A DNA stretch of 63,287 bases, filler included, from Squatina squatina (Eukaryota): assembly GCA_031763465.1 (NCBI GenBank). It is 4 parts of 4 records of this genome, joined end to end, with 100 filler letters (N's around TTAATTAATTAA, not from the genome) between each part and the next. Parts side by side here need not be neighbours in the genome. Positions count along the whole stretch, not along the records: positions 1 to 17,218 come from JARFOE010000219.1; 3 more parts are not named here. One strand, 5' to 3'. The position numbers and the translations under genes were made by a program. Position 1 is the first letter of the stretch; every line of letters starts with the position of its first letter. Under the pieces are notes generated by a model. That model made no database searches and had not been told where the DNA came from. It saw nothing but the letters and a program-made list of their open reading frames with translations. Positions 5,421-55,447 of this stretch are shown here, piece by piece.

Positions 5421-8400
5421 GTCAGCGGCCGCACTGTATTATATTCAGACTCAAGAGTTTGCAGTGTCGCGGGACCGTCTCCTGTTTTTGAAGTCTCCTT
5501 TCAGTTGTGTGCCAGCTTCTCCTGTGAGAAGAATGGTAGTGGGCTAGTGTGTACCCTGTTGAAGGGTTTTGAAGATGGTGAGACATAGGCTGCATGTGGA
5601 GAGAAAACAGCAAATGTGGCCAAGAGAGACAAATAGTTGTGAGGGCAGTAGCAGAGTAAGGTGTTGTGAAGCGCCCTGTTGTGATTGGAGGAGAAGCCGT
5701 GGAGGGAAGGATAATGTTGTAGCTAAAGTAGTGTGATGCAGAGCTGTGCAGAGATGTGAAGGAGCACATCTCTTTGAGAGTCCTGATGAGCTTACGTAAT
5801 ATATTTACAAGTCTGACAAACCCATTTTAAAAAGAATGTGGAAATATAGTATAAAGTAATAAATTTAGAAGAATAATTTGTTAATTCAGAAACCTTGACA
5901 TCAAGTGCATTCTTTGTTCCTCTATCATTATTCCATGCAAATGTATCTACAGAGCAGAATTTGCTTAAAATACTGTGGTAGGGTTTTCAGGTCATGGTTG
6001 TCAACTGCATTTTGATGTGGAGGCCACAGTTATACCAATAAAGTATGGCAAAGGCACTTTTCACAAAAATTCTCCTGCAAGTACAGTACTGGCATTTACT
6101 TCAGAGTCACCTAAATGCTTATCTGCTGTGGCAAGTCCTTGCTCAACGGACTGTTTGCTGACATCTAGCAAATTGTGATGCCAGCAAACTTCAGGACAAA
6201 ATAAAGCTTAGCCTCAATAGTCTAAGTGAAGCTATCTGACATCACTCAAATTATTTTGACAACCTTACCTCATAAATGGATTAAATCACAAAGGTGATGA
6301 AAAGACATCTCAGTTTACTGGCTCAGATTGACTCTGTTCGGAGCCATAGTTTTATCTTCATCTTCCATAAAAGGTCTGTGACTAAATGTTATAATGCATT
6401 GTAGCTTTAGCCACAGAACCAAAATATTTAACAATTGAAAGCTTCATTCAACAACTATGCAGAACTTCTGTACTTGTCTCTTCTATAAACAAGACAGAGG
6501 ATCTCAAATAAACATTAGGATTCAATATTTAATACATGACACAACAAATGTAAAAAAGCATAAGTGACTGCATTATGCAGTAGATTAGAGAACACTGTCC
6601 TTTCATCACCAGGGCCTAGTTTACAATCCAGCCCAGACTGATGGAATAAATATTGCCCCTTTCGATTGGCTGTAAGGATTCTAAAGGCTACATGAGTTTG
6701 GACAGTCTGGAGGAGAAATTCAACTGGAACCAGAAACGGGTTCNNNNNNNNNNNNNNNNNNNNNNNNNNNNNNNNNNNNNNNNNNNNNNNNNNNNNNNNN
6801 NNNNNNNNNNNNNNNNNNNNNNNNNNNNNNNNNNNNNNNNNNNTTTTGTTTTAACTTAATTCAATTCCATTTTGATTCATTTTAAATATCTGATGTTTTT
6901 TACATGTGTATTTTTTGGGATAGTCCCATTCATTCTTATGGTGATTCCTTATATACTTTGCTTGGGCTGGCCCATGTGATCCCAGGGACGCTTGCAAAGC
7001 ATACATGTCCCTGGGATACGTGGGCCTCTATGCAGGCCTTCACATAGAGGCCCAGTACCACAAGTCTTCAAACCACCCGGACTGCCAGGTAAATTTGTAG
7101 ATTTTTTTCAGGTCGGGGGCATCCGCCCACGGGAAGCCTCCGACTGCAAAATGTGGCCCAACGTGTTTTTGAACTCACTGCAGACTAATATAGTCCAGAT
7201 GCACAGTAATAAGCATAAACATCTTCCACCAAGCTATTACTAAATTATTAAGGTGCCACGAACACTGTTGCAAGACACAAATGGGTATGTGGGCAGACTT
7301 CAAAATGTATATAAAAGGTAGTTAAGTGAAATCTTGACAGTATTGTAAGTTAATGTGGTGACAAGATAATGTTCAGGGACAGTTGCACTGATCAACTGAT
7401 TGCTAATTGACAGTGTCAAGACATAAATCCCCCACACATACTTGAAATGCACGGCTGGGAGAGATTGAAACAGTTTTCAGCTCTCAAGCAGTTTACTGTA
7501 TTTCATTATAACTGATTATAATTAACCATTTAACAATTTCTGGTCATTCTTATTTCAAAATGATAGAGCTTTCTTTTCATCCAGTCTGAAAGCCTCAAAG
7601 GAAAGGACTGAAAATTGAAGTAGGCTTTCTTACAGATGCCGCACATATCTATATGTTATTTTAATTTATTAAAAATCTCCTGCTCCAAAAAAAAATCAAC
7701 TGAACCCAACATGGAGAATTCCACTCTCTTTCTTGCTGAAGAAAATGAGTTACTTCACACAAGAAGCAAATGTTTACAATTTTACACACTGGGAACATTG
7801 TCATTTCGTCACAAGTCATTTATGTATTGACTAAAGTGGAATGATGTTTCTTAGCAAAAAGTGAATCATCATGAAGCAACAATAAATTACACAACCACAA
7901 GTCCTCCTCAATCAGTTCTACCTACATTTCTTCCACAATGCAGTGGAAATACAAANNNNNNNNNNNNNNNNNNNNNNNNNNNNNNNNNNNNNNNNNNNNN
8001 NNNNNNNNNNNNNNNNNNNNNNNNNNNNNNNNNNNNNNNNNNNNNNNNNNNNNNNTTCCAGCTGTGAGTTGCACTGGGCCTGGAGCTGGGGGTCGGCCAA
8101 GCATCTTTGCCCTGGAGCTGGAAGGGGAGCTCGATGAGGCTGTGAACGGCGAGCTGGAGCTCGACCTTGCGTCGAATGTAAATGGATGGTCGAGGATTGA
8201 CTGAGGGGGGAAACTGGGCCCCAGGGCTGAAAGTGAGGGGTGTAGTTGGGACTAATGATTAGTTTGTGTGGGGTGGGTTCGAGGGTGTAGGATGGGTATG
8301 GAATCACTCAGTTGGAGCAAAGTTAGGATTTCGAACTGCACTGCGCTGCGCTGCTGCTGCTTCATCGGAAACAGCTTTTGATTTGAATCCAACCAACCAA

Positions 8401-8574
8401 CATCTTGCCCCATTTTTATTTACATTGAAGTCAATGGGTGAGGTGTAAAACGGGCTCCTGACTCACTGTCACCCATTTTACACCATCGTGAAAGTCAAAA
8501 TGTACACCAGTGAACTAGAACTACCCTCTCTCAGCCCAGATTTGGCCAGGGATGGGTCCACTCATTCTCTGTTG

Positions 8575-8706
8575 ACTGTCTGTGTGTGTGTGACTCTCTC
8601 CCTCTCTATTAGTCGCTTTCTCTCTCTCTCTGATTCTCTTTCTATTAGTCGCTCTCAGTCTCTGTCTTGCTCTTGCTCTCTCTGTCTCTATCTCTGTCTC
8701 TCTCTC
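8575..8706. repeat. Imperfect (TG)n/(TC)n microsatellite
   Basis: tgtgtgtgtgtgactctctccctctct...ctctctctctctg...ctctgtctctctctcc read directly. Confidence 0.85.
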
Positions 8707-8971
8707 CATCCAGTACTTGCCCTCTGTGAGATTGGGAACACGTTGCCTGGGTTTCATCGGCCATGGACTTGCACCAAAACAATTCAGTGACACCCCAGTG
8801 CACACTGGACATGGTATCGCTCTCCACGTTCCATTTGTTAATGCTTCATCAGTAATGCTAACTCTCACGAATTATTCGTGAGGCATTTTTAATGAAAGTT
8901 TACTCCAACTCACGAAAGGTGATGATAACGGACAGGATTTTTTAAAAAAGATTTGAACATACGGATTTTAC

Positions 8972-10400
8972 CTGTGTGGATCCTGCATGGTGTTTCTGCT
9001 CGGGAGGTTGCTTTTGGAAAGGTCTTTCAAAAATTGCTTTCAGTGACTCCTTTTCTTGCCTATTTTTCTTTTTTAGGTTTTCAAGCTCTTGTGAATCAGT
9101 TACATCCTTTTTGCCATTTCTTGCCATAAATAATGATTTGAAACTCTCCAAAGCAGATTCACCAGAAGTAGGTATTGGTGCTTCCGCTGATGATTCTTCT
9201 GGTGATGGTGGTTCAGCGGTGTTTTCCGAATGCTGACATTCGTCAGCGGTATCGACTTTATCCTCGATTTTGGGGGCATCAAAGATTAACTGACTGAGCT
9301 GGTCCAAAAATCCAGAATTTTTTTTTCAACTCCAGTGGCTTTCTGTCATCTTTTCTCTTTGGTAAAGATTCTGTTAAGAGTTTCGCTGCAGATTTCTGGC
9401 CTGGTTTAGTCAATTTTAACATTGCTAAACCAGGATCCTTCTGTTTGATCTCTGCCAGAGTCTCTCTGTCCTCACCAACAGCACCTTTCTTCAGTAACCG
9501 GAATCCACTAAAGAGGGGAGGCATTTGAAATGTCTTCTCCGTCTGTGGAGCAGGAACTTCTTGGATGGGAAGATTGCCGGAACTGCCCGTTGACATGGGT
9601 AATGTGAGATCTTCGTTCGACTTGTCCAATAAATTTTGTTCTGTTTCACTATTTCGATCATGAGAGTTTTCGGTTATATTTTTACTGGATTCCATCTGTG
9701 GGGTTAAATTCTCTTTTGGCAATCCGAGTTTAGAAAGCATCTTTGTCTCTTCAACTACATCAATGTTTTCTCGTTGCTGACTTGATGTAGGCTCATTATC
9801 CTTTGGCAGAATTTGTTCTGCAGCGTGCTGAGAGTTTTCATTAACTGACAATGCAACTATAGTTTCATTGATTTGTTTTTTGTCTGGTCCAGCTTCATCC
9901 TCTGACTCAGTATCACTTGTTGTCTGAACAAGAAGCACATGTACTGTACCTTCACCCAAGTCTTTCTCAAACGGCTGTGCAGGATTGAGGGGTTCCAAAG
10001 AACATTCAGGTGCACAGGCTTCTTTATTTCCCTTTTCAGTGTTTTTAATCTGAATTTCGCCATGTATTAACTGTTCTCGCCCCACTTTCTCTGGTTCTTC
10101 CTTTGCCTCAGCAACAGTCGCTTTTTCAGAGGCAGTTACAACATCCTTACCCTTAATGTTATCAGACACATTATTGGGATCTAAAGAACGAAAAAAAGTC
10201 AACAATGCATTTCCTTGGTCAGTCTTTTGCTTTGTTGTTTCTGGGAGAACCTTAATCTCGCGACGACGACCCAGAAACGACATCTTCATAGAAAGTGAAG
10301 GAAATAATGATGAAGTACCTTATGTGGTTGGGGTTGCTGAATTCCCTGTATGTCCCATTTCAGCAGTATTGCCATTATCATTATTTAAACTTTCCATCAT
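8972..10400 (-). pseudogene. FMN1: Formin-1 alternative first coding exon (isoform-IV type), disrupted as assembled by an in-frame stop and a frameshift
   Basis: From ATG 10400: MMESLNND...TT*GTSSLFPSLSMKMSFLG, NALLTFFRSLD, LVQTTSDTESED, FQMPPLFSGFRLLKKGA, EIKQKDPGLAMLKLTKPGQKS. In the next frame: FLDQLSQL, ESALESFKSLF, ELENLKKKNRQEKESLKAIFER. These match recalled mammalian FMN1 isoform-IV motifs (FQLPAFFSGLRVLKKGA; ETALEAFKALF; ELEALKRKMRHEKESLRAVFER). Donor CAG/GTAAAA at 8972/8971. TAA at 10322-10320; one extra base in the T9 run 9318-9326. Confidence 0.85.
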
Positions 10401-11179
10401 ATTGCTACTGCTTATACTGACTTACTACTCCCCTCTCTGAAAATGTTTGTTGAGTTAAGGAAGTTAGTCCATAATTTATATCAGCTACTGATAAGATTCT
10501 GTTTTATAATCTACAAATGCCAAAATCTGTTTGTTTCTGAAATGAACTTGAATCTTCCCCACACCCCCCCACTTCTAGGTCACTATGTTGCCAGAAGCAA
10601 ACATAAAACCTGCAAGCATTTACTGCAAGCAGTCTTTTTTAAACACCTGCAAGCAAACTAATACAGCTGTCTGCCAGCACCTATGGACTGAAACTCCATA
10701 CCAGCTGCTAAATTATGTACTTCATTACACAAAACCGCTGTGCATTTTGTCCATCTTACTTCTACATCAAAAATCTGCCAATGAGAATCGATGAATATAG
10801 TTATCCTGATGAAATGCAACTTGCCCTCCTCCCAAAATTTAAAAAAATCTATGAAGAAACATTCAGTGAAATGACTGTGAGAAGGCCTCTACTTTAAAAG
10901 TAAACCTCAAATGTCACAGAATCCAAGTCAAGGAATGTTAGAATTTTACGCAAAAACAGGAATAAACTTCTGAAAACATCTTTCCTGTGCTTTCTCCAGT
11001 TTTCTGACTTTCTTCACAGGCATTCCAAAACCAGAGATCTCAGCAGGGCAAGATTAAGCAGGCTTCGTCCAGCATCTCAAATCAGCCATAATGTTCCAAC
11101 TGAACAGAAGGTGTAGAACAGCAGGCCTGAAAAGACCGGGTGACTCTTCACAGTGAACTGCAGTTGAAAATCTAGCGTC

Positions 11180-11370
11180 TTGAGAGAGTGTAAAAGTAAC
11201 CCTCCTCCGCCGTCCTGCTCCAGCTTTCAGCTGGAATGTGAGTTTCCGGCTTTACTGTGAGGCAAGAAAGCCCACAGCACTGGTTTCATATTTCTCTGTC
11301 CTAACTCTCCCAGCTACTTCCGCAGTCCAGGCAGGTACTTATCAAACACCCCACCCAATGTGACAGACAG
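11180..11370 (-). promoter_or_regulatory. Possible internal promoter for the FMN1 isoform-IV-type exon
   Basis: ETS core ACTTCCG (11316-11322), CCCCACCC (11349-11356) and CCAAT (11355-11359) cluster about 0.9 kb upstream of ATG 10400 on the same contig. Motif-level evidence only. Confidence 0.3.
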
Positions 11371-11654
11371 TGTACGTAACTGAGCTACTAAAGTATCTGT
11401 TATGCAAACAGTGCGTTACATGCTGTAGTTTAAAGGAGAAAGCACACCAATTCATTTTTTCCTCTCTAACAGGAAACAACTTATTTATTTCAGCTGGAAC
11501 TTTGTGAGCAGTTTTTACTATAAATAGAATGACTGACTTGCTTATAAAATCATAATGAATCTTAGTTATAGTGTAGCTAAGATTTAGTCTTAGTACTATC
11601 AGCAGTAGGGAGAGCACAAGATAAGAATGTGTGAGCGTGTCCCTAGAAAGAAAG

Positions 11655-11860
11655 GAAACATAGAAACATAGAAAATAGGAGCAAGAGTAGGCCATTCGGA
11701 CCTTCGAGCCTTCTCCACCATTCAATATGATCATGGCTGATCATCTAATTCAACACCCTGTTCCTGCTTTCTCCCCATATCCCTTGATCCCTTTAGCATT
11801 AAGAAATATATTTATCTCCTTCTTGAATATATTTAATGACTTGGCCTCCACTGCCTTCTG
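11655..11860 (-). mobile_element. CR1-clade LINE 3' end
   Basis: Minus frame KAVEAKSLNIFKKEINIFLNAKGIKGYGEKAG followed by the tail cgaatggcctactcttgctcctattttctatgtttctatg. Confidence 0.85.
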
Positions 11861-12315: not shown

Positions 12316-13203
12316 CTTGGTAGTCTTGTTGCTGAAACTTTCCATTCGTATTGCTGAAATTTTGTAGCAAAATATTTCCTTCTTCCAAATTATGTTCCAC
12401 TTCTATTTCTTTTGGTGTGGTGTCGCTATGAATAGATGTATATGGTCTTAAGTAGTCCTCATCTGCAGGTTTATGTTCTGTTTCTAGTACAGGTAGTGGG
12501 AGGATCCTGTGATGGAGTTGAGGACTAGGTAATCCTGAGGTCAAAGGAGATGGAACAGGAGACACGTGATGATGCGTAGCAGGACATGGATTGTTAAAAA
12601 TATTACTAACAGCACTTAGTAAAGATAAAGAATCACTTTTGTTGGCTCCCAAGGAAACTCCATCACCCAAGGAATCGACATCAACAGATTGAAGTGGCTT
12701 TAGAAATATATTTTCTTTTATTTGCAGTATGTCTTCACTTGATAAATTTTTACTGTCACAAGCCAAGTTAGTTCCACTTGCATTTGCCTTGCTCTTTTCC
12801 ACTCTATGCCATTCACCTGTTTCATGAAATCGGTCAATCTCAACAACATTTATCAGGTTCTTGTTGACATAGCCACTGAAGGGCTGTGAATTTGCATTGT
12901 TTTGTATCTTTTCCTCAGCAGCCTCAAATATTTTCCTACTGTTGCCGGTCTTCCTTTCACACATCATACTATTGTCACATTCCCTGCCTGTCATGGGTAC
13001 TGTGACAGCATTACAGCTGGTCACAGTTTCACTCTGCATTCCAGTAACCACTGTGGAAATATTTTGTTCCACAATACAATGTTTCACTGATTCATCTGCA
13101 AAAGAGACACCATTTTTGCTTCCTTCAGGCTTTGAAATAGCCGGAACAACTTTTTGCACAACCACGCCTGCATTCTGTATTTTGGCAACCACTGTCACTA
13201 CCG
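12316..13203 (-). CDS. FMN1: Formin-1 large N-terminal coding exon (long isoforms), 5' part lost in the gap
   Basis: About 296 open codons containing IFNNPCPATHHHVSPVPSPLTSGLPSPQLHHRILPLP, matching recalled FMN1 [39 protein letters not shown]. Phase-1 donor CAAG/GTTGGT at 12316/12315. Confidence 0.85.
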
Positions 13204-13303
13204 NNNNNNNNNNNNNNNNNNNNNNNNNNNNNNNNNNNNNNNNNNNNNNNNNNNNNNNNNNNNNNNNNNNNNNNNNNNNNNNNNNNNNNNNNNNNNNNNN
13301 NNN

Positions 13304-13620
13304 GCAGCCAGTAAGTGATGAGCGCGAGCCGCTGTCAGTCAGTGAAATGCGGCTCTGGTCCTCGCGCTCTCCTCCCGGTCTGTGTCCCTGAGCGCGAGCC
13401 GCAGCCACCGCCGCAGCGCCAGCTCAGCGCGCGCCCGCATACACATACACACGCGCGCGCGCACGCAGCGGGTACAGCTGCTCACGGGCCACGTCGGGAG
13501 GCGGAGTCGCGCGCGAACTGCAAAAACCCTGATTCCACGCGAACCGAGAAGTGACTGCATGCCGCAGGCTGGCGTGTGCTCGATATCCGGAGCTAAGATA
13601 GAGGGCGACGAAAGAAATGT
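13304..13620. promoter_or_regulatory. CpG-island-like segment between FMN1 (-) and RYR exon 1 (+)
   Basis: GC- and CpG-rich in an AT-rich background; on the same gap-free contig as the RYR start codon; includes a 32-nt alternating purine-pyrimidine tract. Confidence 0.6.
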
Positions 13621-13639
13621 TATATGCGTTTGCATAAGA

Positions 13640-14022
13640 AAGAAGACGAAAGACTTGCATTTATATAGCGTCTTTCACGACGACTGGACGTCTCAAAGCG
13701 CTTGACAGTCAATGAAGTACTTTTGGACAGTAGTCAGGCCAATGTGGGAAACGCAGCAGTCAACTTGCGCACAGCAATCTTCCACAAACAGCAACATGAT
13801 AATGACTAGATAATCTGTTTTTGTTATGTTGATTGGATTAATATTGGCCAGGACACCAGGGATAACTCCCCTGCTGTTCAAAATAGTGCCATGGGATCTT
13901 TTACATCCACCTGAGAGAACAGACAGGGCCTCGGTTTAACATCTCATCTGAAAGATGGCATCTCTGACAGTGCAGTACTCCCTCAGCACTGCACTGGAGT
14001 GTCAGCCTGGATTATTGTGCTC
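13640..14022 (-). mobile_element. Deu-domain SINE (SacSINE1-like)
   Basis: Reverse strand carries cagtgctgagggagtactgcactgtcagagatgccatctttcagatgagatgttaaaccgaggcc...aaaagatcccatggcactatt and ends in the tail ...gctatataaatgcaagtcttt. Confidence 0.8.
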
Positions 14023-54736: not shown

Positions 54737-55213
54737 CTGCATAAAATTAATGAAAAACTGAAAATCTAAGGTATGTATCCCAATTATCCATACATTATTT
54801 AGCAAAGTAGCAAGTGCTGACAAATACATTGTGCATCTAAATTGTAAAATGGCACATATCTCGATGCAACATTACTGAAAAGATGATTGATATGTATCAC
54901 ATCATCTCATCCAAAATACAACCTAGCACAACAAAAGCTGATTTTCTCTTTACTTCTTTATTTTTAGGCACTCTGACTGAGTTCTAGCCTTTGATTACAT
55001 TGTATGCTCTGTATAATGTTATAGGACTTTTGTTGTATTCGCTTTGTAAATCAAAATGCTTTGGCTATGAAATGGAGAGCTTTGTTTGTTCACTTTTTTC
55101 ATGAAAAGCAAAATATAAAATGAGAATTATATTTCTCGTACCTATAAATGCACTACATAAAAGGACAAAAAAATCATAAGACCTTTATCAGAGCAAGATA
55201 AAATAACTCCTAC

Positions 55214-55447
55214 TTTTCCAGTTTTCACAAATGCTTCTGCTACTTTTCTGTTGCGCCCTCCATAACAAGTTGTAACAAGATCAGCAACTCCGCAACTCTC
55301 CAAGAAGGTGGCTGATGTAACTGATCCTTTACAAAATAATTTAGCAAAAGCTAACATTTCCATCAATCCCAAGCGGATAACAGCAGCTTTAGTGTTGTCA
55401 CCATAGCCAAGCCCATCACAGAAGCCAGCACCAACAGCCACGATATT
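55214..55447 (-). CDS. GPD1L: GPD1/GPD1L-family exon (234 nt)
   Basis: Acceptor tttatttctag; [31 protein letters not shown]...[32 protein letters not shown]; donor AAA/GTAGGA. Confidence 0.95.

What the first reader, a model, noticed from the sequence alone, without database searches (positions are those of the whole stretch)
8972..10400. FMN1 isoform-IV-type first exon is doubly disabled while the long-isoform exon is open: possible isoform-specific loss
Seen: the frame from ATG 10400 hits TAA at codon 27 (10322-10320), resumes in frame with FMN1-like residues, then shifts frame at 9318-9326. The visible long-isoform exon (12316-13203) has no stop in about 296 codons. Known: FMN1 has mutually exclusive N-termini, and its introns host the Grem1 limb enhancers, so the locus is constrained independently of the protein. 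Inference: this lineage or individual may have lost one FMN1 isoform while keeping the gene. Two separate lesions in one gap-free contig are harder to explain as error than one.
Basis: partly seen in the sequence, partly recalled or inferred. Interest (0 to 1): 0.7.

Follow-up and report, generated by a model that had tools for sequence, protein, structure and literature searches.

The report
Broken formin-1 start exon in shark
In this fragmented shark genome draft, the first exon of the short form of the actin-building gene formin-1 carries a stop codon and an extra base that related sharks lack; this is about as likely an error of the draft, which also breaks other conserved genes, as a recent real loss of that one form.

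Summary
The lesions are in the assembly. The minus-strand exon is the FMN1 isoform-IV first exon (80% identical to Heptranchias). It has TAA at 10322-10320, where 14 of 14 orthologues have Glu or Asp, and one extra A at 9326-9318, which 4 of 4 relatives' contigs lack. It is single-copy, and every other FMN1 exon piece found is open. The conserved donor is 8963|8962, not 8972.

Whether the animal carries the lesions is unsettled; no run of this species is indexed. The draft (1.15 million contigs) shows 7 mid-contig lesions in about 133-156 kb of control exons, including CHRM3, HTR1A and ADRA1 homologues. Two such hits in 1.44 kb are expected about 0.2-0.3% of the time. By my rough estimate, recent loss of an exon conserved from chimaera to mouse is about as rare. 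The exon shows no other decay: start and donor are kept, pN/pS is 0.46, and invariant sites show no excess change.

Odds: about 50% artefact, 40% fixed loss, 7% null allele. Mouse isoform-IV knockouts are mild, so loss is plausible. The scan has not noted this on other DNA.

The parts
8963..10400 (-). Coding part of the FMN1 isoform-IV-type first exon (479 codons plus one extra base)
   Evidence: 77-80% identity to Heptranchias formin residues 1-484 in two frames; single copy in G000
10320..10322 (-). In-frame TAA at codon 27 (G>T on the coding strand relative to relatives' GAA)
   Evidence: E or D in 14 of 14 orthologues; GAA in 3 of 3 covering relatives' contigs
10281..10289 (-). Two in-frame ATGs (10289, 10283) just behind the stop; possible reinitiation sites (untested)
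   Evidence: contexts; Met at the first of these columns in most orthologues; products of 336 and 334 aa end at 9279
9318..9326 (-). 9-A homopolymer carrying the +1 frameshift
   Evidence: 4 of 4 relatives' contigs lack one base at 9318 or 9327; longest homopolymer of the exon
9279..9281 (-). TGA reached after the frameshift, 316 nt upstream of the donor
8957..8962 (-). Conserved splice donor GTATGT (exon ends at 8963, phase 0), intact
   Evidence: RNA-guessed contig X9 leaves here into the next exon; sequence; the next exon is found with its acceptor in L164
8966..8971 (-).
   Evidence: relatives differ at 8967-8974 and X9 aligns through it to 8962
10401..10499 (-). 5' untranslated and promoter-proximal stretch, still alignable to relatives
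   Evidence: DNA contigs of X1-X3 align to 10499; the X9 contig ends at 10419
12316..13203 (-). 3' part of the long-isoform exon, open; cut by an N gap at 13204-13303
   Evidence: 55% identity to Pristis formin residues 332-623, no stop; donor CAAG|GTTGGT
8056..11860 (.). Gap-free 3,805-base contig that holds both lesions, each more than 1.2 kb from an end

Best explanation
This is the ordinary FMN1 isoform-IV first exon of a shark, and at least one of its two lesions is likely a consensus error of a fragmented draft, so the animal likely still makes isoform IV. Shown: identity of the exon, both lesions as assembled, intact relatives, a background of similar lesions in control genes, and no further decay. 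Inferred: a thinly covered short-read assembly fixed a G>T misread and/or a one-base slip in an A8 run. If only the frameshift is an error and the stop is real, translation could restart at the in-frame ATGs 11-13 codons behind it. As assembled, the exon yields a 26-residue peptide or a 334-336-residue fragment without FH1/FH2.
For: G000 has 1,152,659 contigs for 1.5 Gb; gap-free pieces in the window have a median of 1,175 bases. Control exons carry 7 mid-contig lesions: stops in L035 (best PDB match muscarinic M3), L107, L172 and L174, each 575-1,542 bases from a gap; frameshifts in L051 (5-HT1A) and L134; and a replaced segment with a stop in L105 (alpha-1 adrenergic; sequences). That is one per 19-25 kb. 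Six control exons run abruptly into unrelated sequence (L044, L114, L180, L184, L189, L198; L198 matches Kir2.1). The exon itself shows no decay. ATG and donor are kept. Besides the frameshift column, 2 of 70 invariant columns are changed, against 1 of 68 in Heptranchias and 3 of 70 in Cetorhinus. Against relatives there are 38 replacement and 23 silent differences, pN/pS 0.46, p = 0.005 against neutrality. All 14 orthologues and all covering relatives' contigs are open. The frameshift sits in the exon's longest homopolymer.
Against: At the measured background two hits in 1.44 kb are expected only 0.16-0.27% of the time (95% range about 0.02-1.1%). Some control lesions (two protocadherins, one orphan-like GPCR) may be true pseudogenes, which would lower that further. 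None of the control frameshifts was seen to be a homopolymer slip. The only multi-lesion control loci (L151 with 2 stops and a frameshift; the decayed L197) look like true pseudogenes. Both lesions are far from contig ends. No special error spectrum was found in the controls. A recent loss would also leave pN/pS and invariant sites nearly unchanged, so those tests have little power.
Confidence: 0.5

Rival explanations
1. Real, recent, fixed loss of isoform IV in this lineage: the exon became a pseudo-exon and gained a second hit, while the long isoform and the shared FH1-FH2 exons stay in use. The frameshift would be the decisive lesion; its stop lies 316 nt before the donor and would likely trigger decay of the message.
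For: Two independent, mutationally ordinary lesions in mid-contig; chance under background about 0.2-0.3%. No second copy. The shared exons found are open: 0 stops in 415 codons, with 3 of 221 invariant sites changed, like other sharks. Three long-isoform pieces are open. Mouse isoform-IV knockout gives only weakly penetrant kidney aplasia (PMC2423616, passages), and Fmn1 disruption does not alter limb development (PMC8455560, passages). The first shared exon has an unusual in-frame extra proline in a motif invariant in 14 of 14 orthologues.
Against: No read support is obtainable. The exon is intact in 14 of 14 orthologues and in the relatives' contigs. There is no third sign of decay and no acceleration specific to this exon: window-specific against Heptranchias-specific changes are 47:28 (p = 0.04) with one outgroup and not significant with six others, and 14:8, 13:10, 13:10 and 7:8 in the shared exons. 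The draft breaks other conserved genes.
Confidence: 0.4
2. The lesions are real but sit on a null allele that segregates in the species, and the assembler picked that haplotype (or one lesion from each haplotype).
For: Short-read consensus does not phase alleles (general knowledge). A mild knockout phenotype would let a null allele persist.
Against: No alternative-allele contig was found (1 match). Two disabling variants in one exon of one animal already imply relaxed selection.
Confidence: 0.07
3. Both lesions are real but bypassed: reinitiation behind the early stop plus ribosomal or polymerase slippage on the A9 run, or a start at the ATG at 9127, would still give an FH1-FH2 protein.
For: In-frame ATGs at 10289 and 10283; the ATG at 9127 in the post-shift frame reaches the donor after 55 codons. 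Start-proximal stops often escape decay (PMC12776119, passages).
Against: It needs two inefficient events in series; many ATGs lie upstream of 9127; no relative shares either lesion.
Confidence: 0.03

Closest known systems
Heptranchias perlo formin isoform X3 (XP_067847467.1, P0003) and other chondrichthyan FMN1 short isoforms
   Same: Same first exon, 77-80% identical, same start position and exon end, followed by the same shared exons.
   Different: Open throughout; Glu at codon 27 and no extra base.
Mouse Fmn1 isoform IV (exon 6) and its knockout (PMC2423616; passages read)
   Same: Isoform defined by its own first coding exon; described as the most widely expressed variant. Losing it leaves the other isoforms and gives weakly penetrant kidney aplasia and cell-spreading defects.
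   Different: An engineered null. The mouse sequence was not aligned here; the link to exon 6 rests on exon structure and recalled similarity. The original knockout paper (PMC2230207) was not held.
Lineage-specific gene losses validated by reads or sister species (PMC7671337; passages read)
   Same: Same kind of evidence: stop and frameshift in an orthologous exon at a single-copy locus.
   Different: That standard needs at least five reads without the ancestral allele, or a lesion shared with a sister species; neither is available here. Only one isoform would be lost, not the gene.

Membership tests
FMN1 isoform-IV first exon | Orthology to the short-isoform N-terminus of FMN1 | tested here: met
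   E = 9.5e-151 to Heptranchias formin X3; tree pairs it with Heptranchias, support 90/90
FMN1 isoform-IV first exon | Splices onto the shared exons that lead to FH1-FH2 | tested here: inconclusive
   Shown in a relative's RNA-guessed contig at 8963; donor and acceptor are intact in G000; no RNA of this species
FMN1 isoform-IV first exon | Lies between the long-isoform exons and the shared exons | tested here: inconclusive
   On scaffold C219 the long exon is upstream and two FH2 exon pieces about 20 kb downstream, but N gaps intervene and most exons sit on other contigs
Unitary pseudo-exon (validated loss) | Inactivating lesions absent from orthologues | tested here: met
Unitary pseudo-exon (validated loss) | No intact copy elsewhere in the genome | tested here: met
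   1 match by DNA and 1 by protein; the draft may be incomplete
Unitary pseudo-exon (validated loss) | Lesions confirmed by raw reads or shared with a sister species | not testable with these tools
   Best share of words among 15 listed runs is 0.08; the relatives laid are 7-9% divergent and intact
Unitary pseudo-exon (validated loss) | Relaxed selection on the branch | tested here: inconclusive
   pN/pS 0.46 on the path to relatives against 0.84 for X1-side differences, Fisher p = 0.39; no excess at invariant sites; low power for a recent loss
Isoform-specific loss | Rest of the gene intact | tested here: inconclusive
   All pieces found are open: 415 shared codons and three long-isoform pieces. 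The first 177 or so long-isoform codons, the coiled-coil exon behind L164 and the last exons were not found.

The most novel reading that the evidence does not exclude
A squalomorph-like shark has naturally lost formin-1 isoform IV, the most widely expressed form in mouse, while keeping the long isoform and the actin-nucleating core: a natural isoform knockout of an exon kept from chimaera and coelacanth to mouse. Searches of the held library listed no title or abstract start reporting such a loss.
Probability: 0.4. Interest if true: 0.5.

Novelty: new member of a known kind. Interest (0 to 1): 0.3.

Why it matters
If real, it is a natural test of what formin-1 isoform IV is for (kidney development, cell adhesion) and a clean case of one isoform being lost from a gene that is otherwise kept. 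If it is an artefact, the lesson is practical: this draft carries about one stop, frameshift or mis-join per 20-25 kb of coding sequence, even in mid-contig, so every 'broken gene' call from it needs reads.

Tried and rejected
1. Reads of the source species: none indexed; the best of 15 listed runs holds 0.08 of the words, and no RNA holder is listed. This is no evidence on expression.
2. A matching or repaired protein in the public collection: three exact look-ups of the window's frames found nothing; the near-length search gave 3 distant hits.
3. A T>G/A>C error signature: suggested by odd changes in control genes and by window-versus-relative counts (21-23 against 6-9, p 0.002-0.02), but not supported in paralogue-based tests (3 of 28; 39 of 251 singletons against 30 of 218 shared, p = 0.60). 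Rejected.
4. A lesion in the FH1 exon: the two matches come from a shorter proline repeat; the frame is open.
5. Split connexin matches as frameshifts: 3 of 3 checked are N gaps, so they were not counted.
7. Earlier notes on look-alike DNA: none.
8. Pfam: no family for the exon. No structure prediction was run, because the question is about base accuracy.

Full report
Observation. The minus strand reads ATG at 10400, TAA at codon 27 (10322-10320), an open frame to a run of nine A's (9326-9318) and a TGA at 9281-9279; FMN1 similarity continues in another frame from 9325. Read through with X at the breaks, the peptide aligns end to end with 14 short-isoform formins from sharks, rays, chimaera and coelacanth (14 of the 28 hits; the teleost and weak hits and the fused Pristis model were left out). 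All 14 have Glu or Asp at codon 27 and run through the A-run. The nearest is Heptranchias (80% over 468 columns, paired at 90/90), so the animal is likely a squalomorph shark (inference). Contigs of relatives 7-9% divergent read GAA at the stop (3 of 3 that cover it) and lack one base at the A-run (4 of 4). The exon is single-copy by DNA and by protein.

Corrections. The conserved donor is 8963|8962. The RNA-guessed contig X9 leaves the window there and continues into the next FMN1 exon, and that exon is present with its acceptor on another contig. ATG to donor is 1438 nt, 3n+1. The long-isoform exon in the window is only its 3' part (293 open codons). Another piece and the following exon lie on separate contigs and are open; the first 177 or so codons were not found.

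Rest of the gene. Eleven segments of shared exons (first shared exon, FH1 exon, eight FH2 exons) give 415 codons with no stop; 3 of 221 invariant sites are changed, as in other sharks. The exons are scattered over many contigs, and some were not found, so 'intact' holds only for what is assembled.

Consequence as assembled (inferred). The first ATG gives 26 residues. Start-proximal stops often escape decay, with a boundary between about codon 21 and 100 depending on the gene (PMC12776119, passages), and in-frame ATGs follow at 10289 and 10283. A restart there gives 336 or 334 residues ending 316 nt before the donor, without FH1/FH2. The frameshift is therefore the lesion that kills the isoform; the stop alone might be bypassed.

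Are the lesions in the animal? No run of this species is indexed, so I measured the draft's background. G000 has 1,152,659 contigs. For GPCRs, one search listed 150 of 152 matches. I examined the 30 loci it delivered plus 60 regions chosen because their match was partial or held a stop, added by hand 30 unfetched near-full rows without stops to one denominator, and did not examine roughly 25 other partial rows. I also examined 28 of 28 connexin loci, 9 of 9 Frizzled loci (not in the denominator), 30 of 44 protocadherin matches, 10 of 10 Kir loci and 20 of 26 BTB_2 loci; the six dropped were mostly weak matches, two of them with stops.

Seven lesions lie away from N gaps. Four are single stops: L035 (muscarinic M3 match), L107, L172 and L174. 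Two are frameshifts: L051 (5-HT1A match) and L134. One is a replaced segment with a stop, L105 (alpha-1 adrenergic match). Not counted: L151 (2 stops and a frameshift) and the decayed L197, both taken as true pseudogenes; stops at gap or contig edges (L116, L169); and six exons that run into unrelated sequence (L044, L114, L180, L184, L189, L198). The labels adenosine-receptor-like (L134), GPR55-like (L107) and TAAR-like (L151) are my recognition, from no call. The rate is one lesion per 19-25 kb, and the chance of two or more in 1,438 bases is 0.16-0.27% (95% range about 0.02-1.1%).

That number cuts both ways. It shows that mid-contig position is no guarantee in this draft: the four control stops lie 575-1,542 bases from the nearest gap. 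It also shows that a double hit by error is rare per exon, and some control lesions may be real. Against it stands the prior for a real loss caught at the two-lesion stage. My rough estimate, from assumed and not measured rates (loss 1-3 per 10,000 Myr, 6-12 Myr spent with exactly two lesions), is 0.1-0.3%. The two are of the same size.

Signs of decay. None beyond the two lesions. ATG and donor are kept and the upstream 100 bases still align to relatives. Besides the frameshift column, 2 of 70 invariant columns are changed, against 1-19 in the ten other species. Over 346 of 479 codons, differences shared by both groups of relatives are 38 replacement and 23 silent (pN/pS 0.46, p = 0.005 against neutrality), no higher than the X1-side differences (12 and 4, Fisher p = 0.39). 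Relative-rate tests against Heptranchias are significant with 1 of 7 outgroups, and the shared exons show a similar slight excess. A loss in the last few million years would not show in these tests. A suspected T>G error signature was not supported.

What is known. Mouse isoform IV is defined by exon 6, is called the most widely expressed variant, and its knockout gives weakly penetrant kidney aplasia and cell-spreading defects (PMC2423616, passages; the original knockout paper was not held). Fmn1 disruption does not alter limb development, and the Grem1-like enhancers lie in the Grem1 TAD, CRM2 including Fmn1 exon 22 (PMC8455560, passages), so they say nothing about this exon. Accepted gene-loss calls need read support or a lesion shared with a sister species (PMC7671337, passages). 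Searches for a reported loss (listings only) showed none; most subscription journals are not in the library, and no supplements were read.

Verdict. A correctly identified FMN1 isoform-IV exon, dead as assembled, with near-even odds between artefact (0.5) and real loss (0.4 fixed, 0.07 segregating, 0.03 bypassed). I lean to artefact because the exon is intact in every relative seen, shows no third sign of decay, and sits in a draft that breaks CHRM3, HTR1A and ADRA1 homologues. One read pile-up or one PCR decides it. Interest 0.3; 0.5 if the loss is real.

Noticed in passing
L164:175-294 (G000:C301468): The first shared FMN1 exon has an in-frame extra proline, with a Thr>Ser beside it and a Pro>Leu nearby, in a motif invariant in 14 of 14 orthologues.
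   Followed up: partly
L035 (G000:C115:24957972-24959351): Muscarinic M3 receptor homologue with an in-frame TAA in the third intracellular loop, in mid-contig.
   Followed up: partly
L051 (G000:C1:15776410-15776973 and downstream): 5-HT1A receptor homologue with a frameshifting deletion just after TM5.
   Followed up: partly
L105 (G000:C1105293): Alpha-1 adrenergic receptor homologue with a short foreign segment containing TAA at the start of TM3.
   Followed up: partly
L198 (G000:C231:1024834-1025259 and downstream): Kir2.1 homologue whose coding sequence runs abruptly into unrelated sequence before an N gap; similar joins in L044, L114, L180, L184 and L189.
   Followed up: partly
L151 (G000:C664271:1819-3900): TAAR-like GPCR (label recalled) with two stops and a frameshift; likely a true pseudogene.
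   Followed up: no
L172, L174 (G000:C46:277461-280709, 328904-332152): Clustered protocadherin exons, each with one mid-contig stop.
   Followed up: partly
window 13304-13700: CpG-rich piece (60% GC, 48 CpG in 397 bases) placed just beyond the gap upstream of the long exon; promoter-like, but its link to FMN1 is unproven.
   Followed up: no
window 55142-55444 (-): Exon of an NAD-dependent glycerol-3-phosphate dehydrogenase (PF07479, E = 1.2e-24), in another stretch of the pack.
   Followed up: no
G000:C115:24896876-24930311: FH2 exons only 57-60% identical to the FMN1 query, likely FMN2 (inference).
   Followed up: no
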